Shown here piece by piece: positions 7,816-46,716 of a DNA stretch of 64,000 nt. The stretch comes from an uncultured Verrucomicrobiae bacterium. Its GTDB lineage: Bacteria; Chlamydiota; Chlamydiia; Chlamydiales; Rhabdochlamydiaceae. The notes beneath the pieces were generated by a model that saw only the letters and a list, made by a program, of their open reading frames with translations, did not search any database and was not told the DNA's origin. The stretch's first letter is position 1. The number at the start of each line of letters is the position of its first letter. Location: NCBI GenBank assembly GCA_963806855.1, contig CAWDYW010000003.1, forward strand, positions 542,129-606,128. Reading direction: 5' to 3'. A program made the position numbers and the translations under genes.

Positions 7816-9936
7816 ATGAACGTCGGCGAAGAGAAAAAAAGGCTACATTGGAAGGATTGGCTCGGGGATGGCCATTTTGGGAAACGTCTTGCCGTCGCAT
7901 TATTCTTTTTTTTATCTCTGGCCCTGTTTCTGCACTTTAGAGAGGTGCGGATGGAGGTCCTCGAACAGGGGACCATTGCCGATCAGTACATCATCGCCCA
8001 GGTCGATTTTGAATTTGCCGATGAAGATGCGACGCTGGTGATCAGGCAGCAATCGGTACGCGATGTTGGATCGATCTATCGGATCAGCGACAAGCAGCTG
8101 AGGCAGATCCGCTCCGATTTTGGGAGCTATCTGCTCACACGGCAAGATTGGCGCGACAAATTAAAGCAGACCACTTTTGATGAGCTCTACCGGGGGGCCG
8201 ATGCACTAGAAGACGCGCTCGCCGATGCCCGCTTTACCAATCAGCGGACGATTCAAAAGATGAAGGATTATGGCCTCATCACCGATAATTATTACCCATT
8301 TACACCTGAAAATATTCAAGAGCCAGCGATCCTGCCAAACACCTTTTGGCGACAGCTGCGCGACAAGGTCTTCGCTTCGAAAAATGTCAATCCTGAAACA
8401 GCCAGCTTTATTTTGGAGTCGTTTGAGAATCAAACTTGGAATTTGCAGCTCGATGGAGTCTCAGAGCGAAACTTGCGGCAGCTCATCCAAGAAAAAGTTC
8501 CTGTTCAATATACTCAGGTCAATGCGGGCAATCACATCATCGATCCTGGTGAAAAAGTGACGAGTCGTCATCTGGCGATGTTGCAGGCAATGAAAACTGC
8601 CATAGCCAAGCAGCGCAACCTTTTCAGTATTCGGACGATTGTCGGTAGTTTGCTGATGTCGCTCTTGTTTACTACCCTGAGTGTCATTTACTTTAGGATC
8701 AACCACCCTGCCATCCTCAATTCCGTCCGCAAAATGACCCTCCTGGTCACGGTGATCATTTTGACCTTGATCCTTGCCAAATGTTCCGAATATTTCTTGG
8801 TCAATCGGGGAACCTATTTAATTGAATTCTTCCGCTATCCGGTGATTGTCCCCTTTGCTTCGATCTTGATCTTTGTCCTAGTCGGCTCCGAAGTGGCCCT
8901 CTTTGCCTCTGCGTTTTTAGCGATTGTCATTGGGGTGACCCTCGCCATCGACCACGACCGGTTTTTGATCATCAACTTAATTGCCTCATGGGTGACAATT
9001 TTATTTGCCCGCAATATGCACAAGCGGAAAGAGGTCTTCACTGTGCTCGCAAAGGTGTGGCTTACTTGCTTGCCGGTGATCATTGCCTTTAATTTAGCTC
9101 AGAACTTCTTTGTCACGGCTCATATGCTCGAAGATGTGGTCAGCTCGCTCATTTTCATCACGCTGATTGCCGTTCTGGTCATCGGGCTCTTGCCGCTGCT
9201 CGAGTCGGTTTTCCATGTGATGACCGATATGACGCTCATGGAATATATGGACCCCAACAACGAGTTGCTCCGCCGCCTCAGCGTCGAGGCCCCAGGGACC
9301 TATCAACACTGTCTGGTGGTGGGGAATTTAGCGGAGAGTGCCGCTCGGGCGATTGGGGCAAACGGATTATTCTGCCGCGTCGCCACCCTTTATCACGACA
9401 TCGGAAAACTCTTTAACCCCCACTATTTTACCGAAAATCAGCTCGGCGGATTCAATATTCACCAGCTGCTCACCCCTCTCGAATCGACCCAGGTGATCAT
9501 CGCCCACGTCCCAGAAGGGGAGGCTCTGGCTCGCAAGTACCGGCTTCCTCAGAGCTTCATCGACATCATCCGGGAACACCACGGCACAACCCTCGTCTAT
9601 TATTTCTATCACAAACAGCTCCAGCAGATGGGAGGGGATGAATCGAAGGTCGATGAAAAACTCTTCCGCTATCCTGGACCCAAACCCCATACAAAAGAAT
9701 CGGTCATCATCATGCTGGCCGATTCAGTCGAAGCGACATCTCGATCGCTCGATGAGATCACCGAAGAGGCGCTCAATGCGATGGTCGAGAGGCTGGTGAA
9801 GGAAAAAACCGACGACGGCCAGCTCGACGACTGCCAGCTCACTTTTGAGGAACTGGGGATCGTCAAGAAAACCTTAGTGAAAACGCTCGCTATTTCTGGC
9901 CATTTGCGGGTCAAGTATCCCGAGAAGAAGAAGTAG
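7816..9936 (+). CDS. 7TM-HD membrane phosphohydrolase (PgpH/YqfF-like HDIG protein)
   Basis: 706 aa. An N-terminal TM helix plus a soluble domain, then a block of about 7 hydrophobic helices, then a C-terminal HD domain (TLYHDIGK, REHHGTTL). Confidence 0.85.
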   Translation: MNVGEEKKRLHWKDWLGDGHFGKRLAVALFFFLSLALFLHFREVRMEVLEQGTIADQYIIAQVDFEFADEDATLVIRQQSVRDVGSIYRISDKQLRQIRSDFGSYLLTRQDWRDKLKQTTFDELYRGADALEDALADARFTNQRTIQKMKDYGLITDNYYPFTPENIQEPAILPNTFWRQLRDKVFASKNVNPETASFILESFENQTWNLQLDGVSERNLRQLIQEKVPVQYTQVNAGNHIIDPGEKVTSRHLAMLQAMKTAIAKQRNLFSIRTIVGSLLMSLLFTTLSVIYFRINHPAILNSVRKMTLLVTVIILTLILAKCSEYFLVNRGTYLIEFFRYPVIVPFASILIFVLVGSEVALFASAFLAIVIGVTLAIDHDRFLIINLIASWVTILFARNMHKRKEVFTVLAKVWLTCLPVIIAFNLAQNFFVTAHMLEDVVSSLIFITLIAVLVIGLLPLLESVFHVMTDMTLMEYMDPNNELLRRLSVEAPGTYQHCLVVGNLAESAARAIGANGLFCRVATLYHDIGKLFNPHYFTENQLGGFNIHQLLTPLESTQVIIAHVPEGEALARKYRLPQSFIDIIREHHGTTLVYYFYHKQLQQMGGDESKVDEKLFRYPGPKPHTKESVIIMLADSVEATSRSLDEITEEALNAMVERLVKEKTDDGQLDDCQLTFEELGIVKKTLVKTLAISGHLRVKYPEKKK

Positions 9937-13219: not shown

Positions 13220-13286
13220 TCAACGCAAAGACGCCAAGGCGCAAAGACGCAAAAAAATATTTTTTTTCTTTGCGCCTTTGCGTTGA
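13220..13286. repeat. octamer-repeat hairpin (gene-less copy of the ACGCAAAG inverted-arm element)
   Basis: TCAACGCAAAGACGCCAAGGCGCAAAGACGC, an A/T loop, then CTTTGCGCCTTTGCGTTGA. It uses the same arms that flank the GxxExxY gene at 24271-24722. Confidence 0.85.
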
Positions 13287-18523: not shown

Positions 18524-18595
18524 AGGTGGCACCCAGATTCGAACTGGGGAATGGGAGCTTTGCAGGCTCCTGCCTTACCACTTGGCCATGCCACC
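18524..18595 (-). tRNA. tRNA-Cys (anticodon GCA)
   Basis: The reverse complement folds as a cloverleaf. Acceptor GGTGGCA/TGCCACC, anticodon stem GGAGC/GCTCC with loop CTGCAAA, T arm CCCAG-TTCGAAT-CTGGG, discriminator U. No encoded CCA. Confidence 0.9.
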
Positions 18596-24247: not shown

Positions 24248-24256
24248 CTTTGTTTG

Positions 24257-24685
24257 ATGAGCACAGATATCAACGCAAAGACGCAAAGTCGCAAAGACGC
24301 GGAGAAAACAGAAAATATACTGGCAAGGCTAATTATTGATGCTGCCGTGGAAGTGCATACTACATTAGGTGGGCCTGGATTGTTAGAGAGCTTATATGAA
24401 GAAGCCTTATTGCAGGAGCTGAAATTAAGAAATATTCCTGTAGAGTCGCAAGTACACTTACCTGTAGTCTACAAAGGATATACCCTTAGAAACCCTTTAA
24501 GACTTGATTTACTTGTAGATCGTAAAGTGATTGTAGAAGTGAAAGCATCTGAGCAAGAGCTCCCCGTTCACAAATCACAGGTGTTGACTTATTTGCGGAT
24601 CACGAAACTAAAATTGGGTTTGCTTCTCAATTTTGGTCAGAAGTATTTGCGTGATGGAATAGAAAGGGTTGTAAATGAACTATAA
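24257..24685 (+). CDS. GxxExxY protein (PD-(D/E)XK nuclease superfamily)
   Basis: GPGLLESLYEEAL fits the GxxExxY signature and LDLLVDRKVIVEVK fits D...ExK. The length of about 140 aa is typical. Residues 6-16 (INAKTQSRKDA) are translated from the left repeat arm. Confidence 0.8.
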   Translation: MSTDINAKTQSRKDAEKTENILARLIIDAAVEVHTTLGGPGLLESLYEEALLQELKLRNIPVESQVHLPVVYKGYTLRNPLRLDLLVDRKVIVEVKASEQELPVHKSQVLTYLRITKLKLGLLLNFGQKYLRDGIERVVNEL

Positions 24686-24722
24686 AAAAATTGCGTCTTT
24701 GCGCCTTTGCGTCTTTGCGTTG
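24271..24722. mobile_element. inverted-arm cassette carrying a GxxExxY nuclease gene (REPtron-like; mobility inferred)
   Basis: The left arm at 24271-24300 and the reverse complement of 24693-24722 match 29/30 (CAACGCAAAGACGCAAAG[T/G]CGCAAAGACGC). The arms enclose a single ORF, and gene-less copies of the arms occur at 13220, 39298 and 46607. Confidence 0.45.
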
Positions 24723-24756
24723 AAAAAGCCTGATCAGTTAACCCCCTCTACCTTCG

Positions 24757-39297: not shown

Positions 39298-39334
39298 GCG
39301 CAAAGACGCAAAACTAGATTTTTTGCGTCTTGGC
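39298..39334. repeat. short hairpin built from the ACGCAAAG-type repeat
   Basis: GCGCAAAGACGCAAAA-CTAGAT-TTTTGCGTCTTGGC. The arms belong to the same octamer family as 13220, 24271 and 46639. It overlaps the 3' end of the 81-aa ORF. Confidence 0.7.
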
Positions 39335-44301: not shown

Positions 44302-46604
<2,303 letters not shown>

Positions 46605-46606
46605 TT

Positions 46607-46708
46607 AAACGCAAAGATGCTTTAGTTGAGGTTTTTTTCAACGCAAAGACGCAGGAAAAAGAAAAAATATTTTTTTTTGCGTCTTTGCGCCTTTGCGTCT
46701 TCGCGTTG
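46607..46708. repeat. octamer-repeat hairpin (gene-less copy) between convergent genes
   Basis: AAACGCAAAGATGC, then TCAACGCAAAGACGC, an A/T loop, and a full 30-nt right arm GCGTCTTTGCGCCTTTGCGTCTTCGCGTTG. It is the same element family as 24271-24722. Confidence 0.85.
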
Positions 46709-46716
46709 AAAATGTC

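What the first reader, a model, noticed from the sequence alone, without database searches (positions are those of the whole stretch)
24254..24730. GxxExxY (PD-(D/E)XK) nuclease gene bracketed by 30-bp inverted octamer-repeat arms inside the dcw cluster: a REPtron-like cassette
Seen: 24271-24300 (CAACGCAAAGACGCAAAGTCGCAAAGACGC) and the reverse complement of 24693-24722 (CAACGCAAAGACGCAAAGGCGCAAAGACGC) match 29/30. Each arm is a run of ACGCAAAG octamers. The only thing between the arms is a roughly 140-aa ORF with GPGLLESLYE (GxxExxY) and an intact D...EVK nuclease motif. The left arm is itself translated (INAKTQSRKDA), and the right arm starts 8 nt after the stop codon. The cassette splits the LysM-gene/ftsW junction of an otherwise tightly packed dcw operon. 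Gene-less hairpins made from the same arms sit at 13220, 39298 and 46607. Established analogy: in REPtrons, a RAYT transposase gene is flanked by inverted REP sequences, and solo REPs are dispersed through the genome. Inference: here a different nuclease fold occupies the same architecture. The nuclease may spread or maintain the hairpin family, or the hairpin loop may be its insertion target. I do not know of this having been described for GxxExxY proteins.
Basis: partly seen in the sequence, partly recalled or inferred. Interest (0 to 1): 0.8.

Follow-up and report, generated by a model that had tools for sequence, protein, structure and literature searches.

The report
Palindrome-bounded GxxExxY nuclease gene cassette
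A 0.5-kb unit, a small nuclease gene enclosed by two inverted arms made of repeated 8-base units, was inserted whole into a cell-division operon of a Chlamydia-like bacterium; the same gene-plus-arms design recurs across bacterial phyla alongside many gene-less hairpin copies, which points to a widespread mobile-element family I could not find described.

Summary
Arms 24270-24300 and 24693-24723 are 30/31 complementary and built from ACGCAAAG-type octamers. They enclose only a 142-aa GxxExxY / PD-(D/E)XK ORF (PF13366, E 2.5e-38).

The ~509-bp block is an insertion. Three more distant Chlamydiota relatives have LysM and ftsW overlapping (TAATG/TGATG) with no hairpin. A closer relative carries the cassette, arms included, at the same junction. 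It has diverged like its neighbours (81.7% aa; dN/dS 0.08, as MurC), and its arms are far more conserved than neutral sites.

The design is family-wide. 49 of 71 GxxExxY loci from metagenomes have flanking inverted arms of tandem 8-9-nt units (CRCNRAG), against 0 of 68 control positions. Arm-only hairpins occur in many phyla and outnumber gene-bearing copies. In this genome they match the cassette's arm 32/33 and are present or absent among close relatives.

The REPtron analogy is partly supported: the logic fits, but the enzyme is not a RAYT, nuclease action on the arms is untested, and the hairpin-loop-target idea fails at this locus. The closest described architecture is the ORF-bearing 23S rRNA intervening sequence. 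No description of this family-wide pattern was found in the searched literature.

The parts
24248..24756 (+). Whole inserted block (~509 bp): leader, left arm, ORF, right arm and spacer
   Evidence: It is absent from the LysM|ftsW junction of L127, L128 and L129/L130, where the LysM stop overlaps the ftsW ATG. It is present in syntenic L124.
24257..24685 (+). GxxExxY / PD-(D/E)XK nuclease gene (142 aa; alternative TTG start at 24254)
   Evidence: PF13366 E 2.5e-38 and TIGR04256 E 1.2e-39. dN/dS 0.078 against the L124 ortholog. AF2 model pLDDT 86; best fold matches are Cas4 SSO0001 and lambda exonuclease.
24270..24300 (+). Left arm: TCA + ACGCAAAG ACGCAAAG TCGCAAAG ACGC, with a degenerate 4th unit to 24304. 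It is translated as NAKTQSRKDA.
   Evidence: It is 29/31 identical to the L124 arm, and dS over aa 1-16 is 0.29 against 1.75 in the gene body.
24693..24723 (+). Right arm: GCGTCTTTGCGCCTTTGCGTCTTTGCGTTGA, non-coding, starting 7 nt after the stop
   Evidence: It is 28/31 identical to the L124 arm although dS is saturated. It pairs with the left arm in the RNA MFE and centroid folds.
24724..24756 (+). 33-nt spacer between the right arm and the ftsW ATG. It is part of the inserted block.
   Evidence: No counterpart exists in the empty junctions.
13220..13286 (.). Solo (gene-less) hairpin with the same arms: four units on the left and two on the right, with an A/T-rich loop
   Evidence: DNA fold -24.9 kcal/mol, z -6.5. 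Its arm is 32/33 identical to the cassette right arm. It is not terminator-like.
46638..46709 (.). Solo hairpin with the same arms, lying between the convergent LysRS and CYTH genes
   Evidence: z -4.6. Arm 32/33 identical to the cassette arm. Absent from the same junction in L216 and L217; a left arm is present there in L218.
46605..46620 (+). Partial arm (TTAAACGCAAAGATGC) directly after the LysRS stop. It is probably the remnant of an older hairpin.
   Evidence: In L218 an arm starts at the same position, directly after the TAA.
39298..39334 (.). Short two-unit mini-hairpin (GCGCAAAGACGCAAAA...TTTTGCGTCTTGGC). Its membership is uncertain.
   Evidence: z -4.3. No counterpart at the equivalent place in L218.

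Best explanation
SHOWN:
- The feature is a compact palindrome-bounded gene cassette. A ~125-aa-core GxxExxY PD-(D/E)XK nuclease gene sits in the 'loop' between two inverted arms. The arms are built of tandem 8-9-nt units (consensus CRCNRAG+N) and end in TT[C/A/T]A[A/C]C[G/A]C.
- The cassette entered the LysM|ftsW stop/start overlap of the dcw operon as one ~509-bp unit, in an ancestor of this Chlamydiota lineage.
- It lies in the operon's orientation and has no promoter-like or terminator-like site of its own.
- It has since been inherited vertically, with purifying selection on both the protein and the arm sequences.
- The same design is the rule across the GxxExxY family in several phyla.
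- Gene-less hairpins with the same arms are much more numerous. In this genome they share the cassette's arm variant, and they are gained or lost between close relatives.

INFERRED (most likely mechanism): the nuclease recognises and cuts DNA at its own kind of arm, either the hairpin or cruciform or the tandem units near the conserved terminus. This would promote copying of arm-bounded DNA to new sites. The gene-bearing cassette would then be the autonomous partner and the solo hairpins its non-autonomous dependants, as with a RAYT and its REPINs or a transposon and its MITEs.

INFERRED: in the operon transcript the ~31-bp stem makes the insert an IVS-like module that RNase III could cleave. 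The hairpin is flanked by a T-run 5' and an A-run 3', so it does not terminate transcription. Together these would let an essential operon tolerate the insertion.
For: - Whole-unit insertion against clean empty sites.
- Orthologous cassette with arms in L124. Flanking proteins are 82-92% identical and the cassette protein 81.7%; dN/dS 0.078 against MurC 0.075, with dS ~1.4-1.7.
- Arms are 28-29/31 conserved although neutral sites are saturated.
- Catalytic D84, E94 and K96 and the GxxExxY residues are invariant.
- Family-wide arms: 49/71 loci against 0/68 positional controls and none of 30 shuffles per locus. Distant genes from Bacteroides, Bernardetia, Sphingomonas, Schlesneria and Gemmatirosa have arms with other unit sequences.
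- In loci picked by arm sequence alone, the only ORF cargo found was GxxExxY (L104, and decayed L012). About 60 others are solo hairpins.
- The window's solo arms are 32/33 identical to the cassette arm, while arms from other genomes average 26/33.
- The solo at 46638 is absent in L216 and L217 and present in L218. L217 has a solo at another site.
- Cassettes are co-oriented with neighbours: 48/60 upstream, 56/65 downstream, and 0/42 opposed to both.
- No promoter or terminator signal.
- The RNA fold pairs the arms, z -3.25.
- Precedents: REPIN-RAYT systems combine a vertically inherited single-copy enzyme with dispersed palindromic dependants. The Coxiella IVS has an ORF between 28-bp inverted repeats that contain tandem heptamers and are cut by RNase III (PMC4990558).
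Against: - Nothing shows that the protein is an active nuclease or that it binds or cuts the arms.
- Arm unit type follows protein relatedness only weakly: 0.44 same-type at >=65% identity against ~0.32 expected.
- At this locus the cassette has been immobile over a long period (dS >1.4).
- Left/right complementarity is not kept by compensatory changes: 30/31 in the window but 26/31 in L124. Across 60 loci, 16% of positions are mismatched, with no G-U bias for either strand. This gives no positive support for a conserved RNA or DNA stem beyond plain conservation.
- No convincing target-site duplication.
- A 125-aa nuclease alone cannot carry out strand transfer, so host repair or another factor would be needed.
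- I could not test whether genomes with solo hairpins always encode a GxxExxY gene.
- Solo loops are heterogeneous and do not look like simple deletion derivatives.
Confidence: 0.45

Rival explanations
1. IVS-like RNA module with an unrelated cargo. The arms work only in RNA. They form a long stem in the read-through operon transcript that RNase III cleaves, which separates the insert from host mRNA and controls expression of the ORF. The nuclease has its own function unconnected to the arms, such as repair, defence or addiction. Spread is by general recombination or HGT.
For: - The arms pair as a ~31-bp stem enclosing the ORF in the MFE and centroid folds.
- The cassette has no promoter or terminator and is co-oriented with its neighbours.
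- The described Coxiella 23S IVS has the same layout, has tandem heptamers in its arm, and is cut by RNase III within the stem (PMC4990558).
- Long vertical persistence with dN/dS 0.08 fits a protein the host keeps.
Against: - Mismatches between arms show no bias towards G-U wobble on the sense strand: 78 sense-compatible, 92 antisense-compatible, 171 transversions.
- Solo hairpins occur between convergent genes and upstream of genes, where no ORF needs processing.
- It does not explain why solos multiply and share the cassette's arm variant.
- It does not explain why GxxExxY specifically is the cargo.
Confidence: 0.25
2. Domesticated or ordinary host gene with relic arms. The cassette was mobile once but is now a fixed chromosomal gene with a cellular role. 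The solo hairpins are an independent, host-maintained repeat family (REP-like regulatory or structural hairpins) that merely shares ancestry with the arms.
For: - Vertical inheritance at the same junction, with divergence equal to neighbouring housekeeping genes and strong purifying selection.
- Absent from phages and viral contigs, and very rare on plasmids (7 of 72,556, all non-mobilizable).
Against: - Arms remain under nucleotide-level constraint, not decaying: 28-29/31 identical against saturated dS.
- The family shows empty-site polymorphism and sits at different chromosomal sites in every genome examined.
- PMC3424549 reports 'multiple transfers, mixed clades' for PF13366.
- Solos are polymorphic among close relatives.
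Confidence: 0.15
3. Free-standing homing endonuclease. The nuclease cuts the empty target site in cassette-free genomes, not the arms. The cassette is then copied in by double-strand-break repair after DNA transfer. The arms would be incidental or regulatory.
For: - A small nuclease gene is inserted precisely between two conserved genes, with intact empty sites in relatives. This is the classic picture for intronless homing.
Against: - Cassettes sit at unrelated junctions in different genomes (dnaJ-hydrolase/Fic, MTHFR/DoxX, fabD/fabG, radA and others), with no common target.
- It does not explain the conserved arms or the solo hairpins.
- The family is often multi-locus per metagenome, with short contigs breaking at the arms.
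Confidence: 0.1

Closest known systems
REPIN-RAYT systems (REPtrons)
   Same: - A single-copy enzyme gene is bracketed by inverted copies of a repeat.
- Many gene-less palindromic copies are dispersed in the same genome.
- The enzyme is vertically inherited and kept under selection.
- Solos vary between close relatives.
   Different: - The enzyme here is a ~125-aa Cas4/lambda-exonuclease-like PD-(D/E)XK domain, not an HUH Y1 transposase.
- The arms are runs of tandem 8-9-mers rather than a single REP palindrome.
- The gene sits inside one split hairpin.
- The family spans many phyla and is often multi-copy.
- No activity on the repeats has been shown.
ORF-bearing 23S rRNA intervening sequences (Coxiella, Leptospira; S23p ORF)
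   Same: - A ~0.4-0.5-kb insert carries one small ORF between ~28-31-bp terminal inverted repeats.
- It is transcribed as part of a host transcript.
- The 5' arm holds a variable number of tandem 7-mers (GACAGAT) (PMC4990558).
- Its origin as a mobile element has been proposed but remains unexplained.
   Different: - The host site here is an mRNA operon junction, not an rRNA helix.
- The cargo is a nuclease under strong purifying selection, whereas Coxiella S23p is decaying and probably untranslated.
- RNase III processing has not been tested here.
- I did not test whether S23p-type genes outside rRNA use the same arms.
MITEs and their parent transposons (e.g. Correia/NEMIS, Rickettsia palindromic elements)
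   Same: - Short hairpin-forming elements have terminal inverted repeats.
- They are scattered in intergenic DNA, are present or absent between relatives, and outnumber a longer gene-bearing form.
   Different: - No recognised transposase (DDE, Y1 or serine) is present.
- No clear target-site duplication.
- Solo loops are heterogeneous rather than deletion derivatives of the gene.
Free-standing homing endonuclease genes
   Same: - A small nuclease gene is inserted exactly between conserved genes.
- Relatives keep an intact empty site.
   Different: - No common target site across loci.
- The cassette has conserved inverted arms and gene-less copies, which homing endonuclease genes lack.
Integron gene cassettes (attC)
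   Same: - A promoterless ORF is co-oriented with host transcription.
- It is associated with a hairpin-forming imperfect palindrome.
   Different: - The palindrome is split around the ORF rather than following it.
- The termini do not fit the attC core sites (RYYYAAC / GTTRRRY) consistently. This was judged by inspection.
- There is no integrase and no cassette array.

Membership tests
GxxExxY / PDDEXK_3 (TIGR04256, PF13366) | Whole-protein HMM score above the curated cut-off | tested here: met
   PF13366 scores 131.5 bits against a cut-off of 22. TIGR04256 scores 135.3 bits against a cut-off of 35.
GxxExxY / PDDEXK_3 (TIGR04256, PF13366) | GxxExxY motif and PD-(D/E)XK catalytic D...ExK | tested here: met
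   G41/E44/Y47 and D84/E94/K96 are present. G41, E44, D84, E94 and K96 are invariant in 27 homologs, and Y47 is conserved in >=90%.
PD-(D/E)XK nuclease fold | alpha-beta-beta-beta-alpha-beta core resembling solved nucleases | tested here: met
   AF2 model pLDDT 86. The best PDB matches are Cas4 SSO0001 4ic1 (E 5.5e-4, TM 0.46-0.54), lambda exonuclease and LHK-exo. The TM values are only moderate.
REPtron (REP/REPIN-RAYT) | Enzyme is a RAYT (HUH Y1 transposase, IS200/IS605-like) | tested here: not met
   The only Pfam/NCBIfam hit is PDDEXK_3/GxxExxY.
REPtron (REP/REPIN-RAYT) | Enzyme gene flanked by the repeat in inverted orientation | tested here: met
   Arms are 30/31 complementary. 49/71 family members have such arms, against 0/68 controls.
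REPtron (REP/REPIN-RAYT) | Same repeat dispersed gene-less through the genome | tested here: inconclusive
   There are two strong solos and one weak solo in the 64-kb window, with arms 32/33 identical to the cassette's. The whole genome was not available for counting.
REPtron (REP/REPIN-RAYT) | Enzyme mobilises the repeats | not testable with these tools
   This needs biochemistry or a genome-wide co-occurrence census.
23S rRNA intervening sequence (IVS) | Located in a helix of the 23S rRNA gene | tested here: not met
   The cassette lies between the LysM gene and ftsW. No rRNA was found in 13-47.5 kb by Rfam.
23S rRNA intervening sequence (IVS) | ORF enclosed by terminal inverted repeats that form a long stem in the host transcript | tested here: met
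   The RNA fold pairs the arms in the MFE and centroid structures. Compare PMC4990558.
23S rRNA intervening sequence (IVS) | Excised by RNase III | not testable with these tools
MITE / TIR transposon | Terminal inverted repeats plus target-site duplication | tested here: inconclusive
   The inverted repeats are clear. The only candidate duplication is an imperfect TT[T/C]GATGA flanking the block in the window, and only ATGA in L124. That overlaps obligatory start codons.
Intrinsic (Rho-independent) terminator | GC-rich stem followed by a U-run | tested here: not met
   No terminator-like call at the cassette or the solos on either strand. The hairpins carry a T-run 5' and an A-run 3'.
Known RNA families (Rfam 15) | Match to any covariance model | tested here: not met
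   Only a tRNA and one chance miRNA hit in 13000-47500 at E<=1.

The most novel reading that the evidence does not exclude
GxxExxY cassettes and their solo hairpins form a pan-bacterial class of DNA replicators driven by a minimal PD-(D/E)XK nuclease. This would be a second, independent invention of REPIN-RAYT logic. The long-unexplained ORF-bearing rRNA intervening sequences, whose arms also contain tandem short repeats, would belong to the same superfamily of palindrome-bounded cassettes. That would assign a function to a family of more than 16,000 50%-identity clusters now listed as 'unknown'.
Probability: 0.35. Interest if true: 0.85.

Novelty: new variant of a known kind. Interest (0 to 1): 0.7.

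Why it matters
GxxExxY/PDDEXK_3 is a very large family: 16,390 clusters at 50% identity. It has no assigned function, and only a handful of papers in the searched library mention it at all.

This work shows that its genes are, as a rule, packaged between inverted tandem-repeat arms, that they insert as units into housekeeping operons, and that they coexist with far more numerous gene-less hairpins. That turns 'unknown nuclease' into a concrete, testable hypothesis: the nuclease acts on its own arms.

It would also explain a class of hairpin repeats found in many phyla, which break metagenome assemblies and produce spurious ORFs. It offers a second system beside REPIN-RAYT for studying long-lived intragenomic replicators. 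And it gives a lead on the origin of rRNA intervening sequences, which is still open.

Tried and rejected
- **Rfam** (evalue mode, 34.5 kb): no family for the hairpins.
- **PDB by sequence:** nothing.
- **PHROGs and PADLOC:** PHROGs gave nothing; PADLOC gave only weak Cas4-core hits.
- **Phages, IMG/VR viral contigs, plasmids:** no relatives in phages or viral contigs; 7 of 72,556 plasmids, all non-mobilizable. Phages and plasmids are therefore not supported as the vehicle.
- **Holliday-junction-resolvase idea** (cruciform cutting by an Hjc-like enzyme): the fold search gives Cas4/lambda-exonuclease-like matches instead.
- **Hairpin loop as the insertion target for the gene:** rejected at this locus by the empty sites. 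Nested hairpins elsewhere (L016, L003) keep it open for solos.
- **Intrinsic terminator reading:** rejected.
- **attC-like and DnaA-box-like readings of the arms:** considered by eye and dropped because the core motifs do not fit consistently.
- **RNA-stem covariation:** no G-U bias.
- **Protein clade versus arm unit type:** only a weak association.
- **Solo hairpins as deletion derivatives of the cassette:** the 46638 loop resembles the cassette's 5' inner sequence, but it is A-rich low-complexity sequence, and loops in other genomes are unrelated.
- **Solos inside ORFs:** the open-frame test is unreliable in high-GC genomes and was discarded.
- **Other cargo families between arms:** none found. 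The real proteins were ordinary genes lying between two separate hairpins.
- Cluster look-up gave no organism names.
- **Chance level of the genome scan:** a 15-mer with one degenerate base is expected ~2,000 times by chance in 596 Gb, so single matches were not counted unless the octamer run continued.
Full report
**1. The observation**

The repeat finder returns arms at 24270-24300 and 24693-24723, 31 nt long, 97% complementary and 392 nt apart. The right arm is three in-register copies of TTGCGYCTTTGCG spaced 8 nt apart. A two-octamer probe (ACGCAAAGACGCAAAG, up to 2 mismatches) hits 12 times in the window against 0.03 expected, and no shuffle reached 12.

The only ORF between the arms is 24257-24685 (142 aa). 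It matches PF13366 PDDEXK_3 (E 2.5e-38) and TIGR04256 GxxExxY (E 1.2e-39). No paralog lies elsewhere in the window.

The context is an mraY-murD-LysM-[cassette]-ftsW-murG-murC cluster. FtsW and LysRS homologs are labelled Chlamydiae/Chlamydiota by their sources. Window G+C is 48.3%.

Solo hairpins at 13220-13286 and 46638-46709 are strong. The one at 39298-39334 is a short two-unit version.

**2. The cassette is an insertion, and an old one**

A protein 82% identical (P0002) lies at the same LysM-ftsW junction in a syntenic relative, L124. Between the two organisms the protein identities are:
- MraY 83.7%
- LysM 84.9%
- FtsW 91.7%
- MurC 81.9%
- GxxExxY protein 81.7%

dN/dS is 0.078 for the cassette gene and 0.075 for MurC, with dS about 1.4-1.7. 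The cassette was therefore already present in the common ancestor and encodes a protein under ordinary purifying selection.

The arms are much better conserved than neutral sites. The left arm is 29/31 identical, and the non-coding right arm is 28/31 identical. dS over the arm-encoding codons is 0.29 against 1.75 in the gene body. The changes that did occur are not compensatory: complementarity is 30/31 in the window and 26/31 in L124.

In three more distant relatives (FtsW 80%, 77% and 71% identical: L127, L128, L129/L130) the LysM stop overlaps the ftsW start (TGATG/TAATG), with no spacer and no hairpin. About 509 bp (24248-24756) therefore arrived as one unit, comprising a short leader with the ATG, the left arm, the gene, the right arm and a 33-nt spacer. 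The arms came with the gene. The gene did not drop into a resident hairpin.

I found no convincing target-site duplication. An imperfect TT[T/C]GATGA flanks the block in the window, but only ATGA does in L124, and both overlap start codons.

**3. The design is a property of the family**

The 31 sequences I fetched from the top 120 homologs (66-84% identical, from many contigs) almost all carry the arm translation (NAKTQSRKDAEK and variants) at the N-terminus. At the DNA level, L121, L122 and L123 show the same layout at three unrelated housekeeping junctions.

Distant homologs (39-50% identical) have the same layout with different unit sequences:
- Bacteroides finegoldii: TTCACCACAGAGGACGCAGAGG.../...CCTCTGTGTCCTCTGTGGTGAA
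- Bernardetia: ACACAGAG units
- Sphingomonas, between fabD and fabG: ACGCGAAG units
- Schlesneria: ACACGGAT units
- Gemmatirosa: CCGCAGAGG units, here as two complete hairpins either side of the gene
- L104: degenerate CGCAAAG arms, with the ATG after the arm

In 80 metagenome loci encoding relatives 43-73% identical, 49 of 71 testable loci have a flanking inverted repeat scoring at least 12 and beating all 30 shuffles. None of 68 control positions offset by 1.3 kb does. Several of the remainder have strong direct repeats of arms, meaning complete hairpins on both sides.

Units fit CRCNRAG (CGCAGAG, CGCAAAG, CGCGGAG, CACGGAG, CACAAAG, CACAGAG and others), and termini fit TT[C/A/T]A[A/C]C[G/A]C.

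Cassettes are co-oriented with their neighbours: 48/60 upstream, 56/65 downstream, both sides 32/42, and never opposed to both. No promoter-like or terminator-like site accompanies the cassette here.

The family comprises 16,390 50%-identity clusters at E<=1e-3. It is absent from phage and viral collections and nearly absent from plasmids.

**4. Gene-less hairpins**

About 2,000 chance hits are expected for such a pattern, so I counted only matches where the octamer run continues. That holds for 80 of 130 matches, which chance does not give.

These come from Sorangium, Thioalkalivibrio, Geomonas, Trichlorobacter, Planctomycetota, Acidobacteriota, Verrucomicrobiota, Chloroflexota and others. 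Nearly all are hairpins of 65-200 nt without a gene. Only L104 (intact) and L012 (decayed) carry an ORF, and it is GxxExxY in both. L073 and L080 carry non-coding cargo.

A search for any other ORF family between periodic arms across all ~215 loci found none. The few real proteins (CN-hydrolase, VTT/DedA, altronate dehydratase) are ordinary genes between two separate hairpins.

In the window, the two strong solos have arms 32/33 identical to the cassette's right arm. Arms from other genomes, although pre-selected to share the first 15 nt, average 26/33, and only 3 of 129 reach 32.

The solo at 46638-46709 is itself an insertion. Relatives L216 (LysRS 89%) and L217 (78%) have a 15-18-nt spacer between the same two convergent genes, with identical protein C-termini. 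L218 (90%) has an arm starting directly after the LysRS stop, where its contig ends. L217 has a solo of this type at a different place.

The solos fold strongly as single strands (z -6.5, -4.6). They carry a T-run 5' and an A-run 3', the reverse of a terminator, and are not called as terminators on either strand.

**5. The protein**

The AF2 model (pLDDT 86; only one of the five models was confident) has the PD-(D/E)XK core. Its best solved-structure matches are Cas4 SSO0001, lambda exonuclease and LHK-exo, at TM about 0.45-0.54. PADLOC gives weak Cas4-core hits. D84, E94 and K96 are invariant. The arm-encoded residues 6-16 fall in the lower-confidence N-terminal part of the model (mean pLDDT 50-73 over residues 1-20). 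In other clades the arm lies upstream of the ATG, so translation of the arm is incidental.

**6. How it most likely works**

Shown:
- A unit insertion into a tight operon junction.
- Vertical persistence with selection on both gene and arms.
- A family-wide gene-plus-arms design.
- More numerous gene-less copies that share the local arm variant and turn over between relatives.

Inferred, at about 45% confidence: the nuclease acts on arm DNA, and the cassette stands to the solos as a RAYT stands to its REPINs. REPIN-RAYT systems are described as single-copy, vertically inherited enzymes with dependent palindromic repeats.

Layered on this, the 31-bp stem predicted in the operon transcript parallels the ORF-bearing 23S rRNA intervening sequence of Coxiella. 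That element is 428 nt long, has 28-bp terminal inverted repeats cut by RNase III, and has two or three tandem GACAGAT heptamers in its 5' arm (PMC4990558). That paper cites the older proposal that such IVSs were mobile elements whose ORF served mobility.

Against the main inference:
- No activity data exist.
- Coupling between arm type and protein clade is weak.
- There is no compensatory or wobble pattern between the arms.
- No target-site duplication was found.
- Solo loops are heterogeneous.

The rivals are an RNA-only IVS-like module with unrelated cargo (0.25), a domesticated gene with relic arms (0.15), and a homing endonuclease acting on empty sites (0.10).

**7. Novelty**

Full-text searches for GxxExxY, PF13366, PDDEXK_3 and TIGR04256 return five papers, none about this architecture. 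PMC3424549 lists the family as function 'Unknown' with 'multiple transfers'. Ten arm sequences return nothing relevant. Rfam has no model.

I therefore rate this a new variant of a known kind. It shares REPIN-RAYT, MITE and IVS logic, but uses a different enzyme fold and a distinctive tandem-unit arm. The insertion-target idea is refuted at this locus, and the mobilising role of the nuclease remains untested.

Noticed in passing
L016:790-1030; L003:560-1260: Nested hairpins. In L016 a complete CGCGGAG-type hairpin sits in the loop of a CACAGAG-type hairpin. L003 (Acidobacteriota) shows at least three nested layers of different arm types. This could mean hairpin centres are preferred targets, or simply safe sites.
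   Followed up: partly
L135:2276-2945 (Gemmatirosa kalamazoonensis plasmid 1): A GxxExxY gene that looks frameshifted is flanked by two complete CCGCAGAGG-type hairpins (2276-2360 and 2870-2945), rather than by the two halves of one.
   Followed up: partly
L133:2440-2960 (Fusobacteria bacterium ZRK30 plasmid): This GxxExxY gene is flanked by a direct repeat (CAGATTTAATCCGTGTACCTAT), not an inverted one.
   Followed up: no
window 44311-46604: Lysine-tRNA ligase appears as two overlapping ORFs in different frames (44311-46059 and 45966-46604). Homologs, including a 100%-identical Logan protein, are single 764-aa proteins. This is probably a frameshift or a one-base assembly error in the window.
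   Followed up: no
proteins P0361-P0364, P0367, P0371 and others: Many of the best family representatives are 263-295 aa with two matched stretches. These are tandem double GxxExxY proteins, or read-through of adjacent cassettes.
   Followed up: no
L002:7688-8000, L026:3868-4100, L066 (one Planctomycetota MAG, JBFWYD01): In this genome a CGCAAAG-type left arm is followed by a longer composite repeat (...CTTCGAGGGCGGGAAAGA... twice) that recurs at three loci.
   Followed up: no
L110:5745-6970: Runs of the 7-mer CCTCAGT in inverted orientation flank a 400-aa altronate/galactarate dehydratase gene. These are probably two separate hairpin halves of yet another unit type.
   Followed up: partly
window 24270-24300 and 24693-24723; arms of the CGCAAAG and CACAGAG types in general: On the sense strand the left arm contains no T and the right arm no A, so no stop codon is possible in any of the six frames. 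ACACGGATGA-type arms do not share this property.
   Followed up: no
L125:4119-5696 (GCA_945861315.1): A close homolog (P0005, 81% identical) also follows a LysM-domain gene, but in a different neighbourhood (pheT ... recO). The same contig has a CACAGAG-type solo hairpin at 8204-8310.
   Followed up: no
L161:382-1290: A metagenome contig has arms 33/33 identical to the window cassette's right arm, although its GxxExxY protein is only ~54% identical. A 121-aa signal-peptide-like ORF with no Pfam hit lies between further arms next to it.
   Followed up: partly
window 18524-18595 (-): A tRNA gene (Rfam RF00005, 64.5 bits).
   Followed up: no
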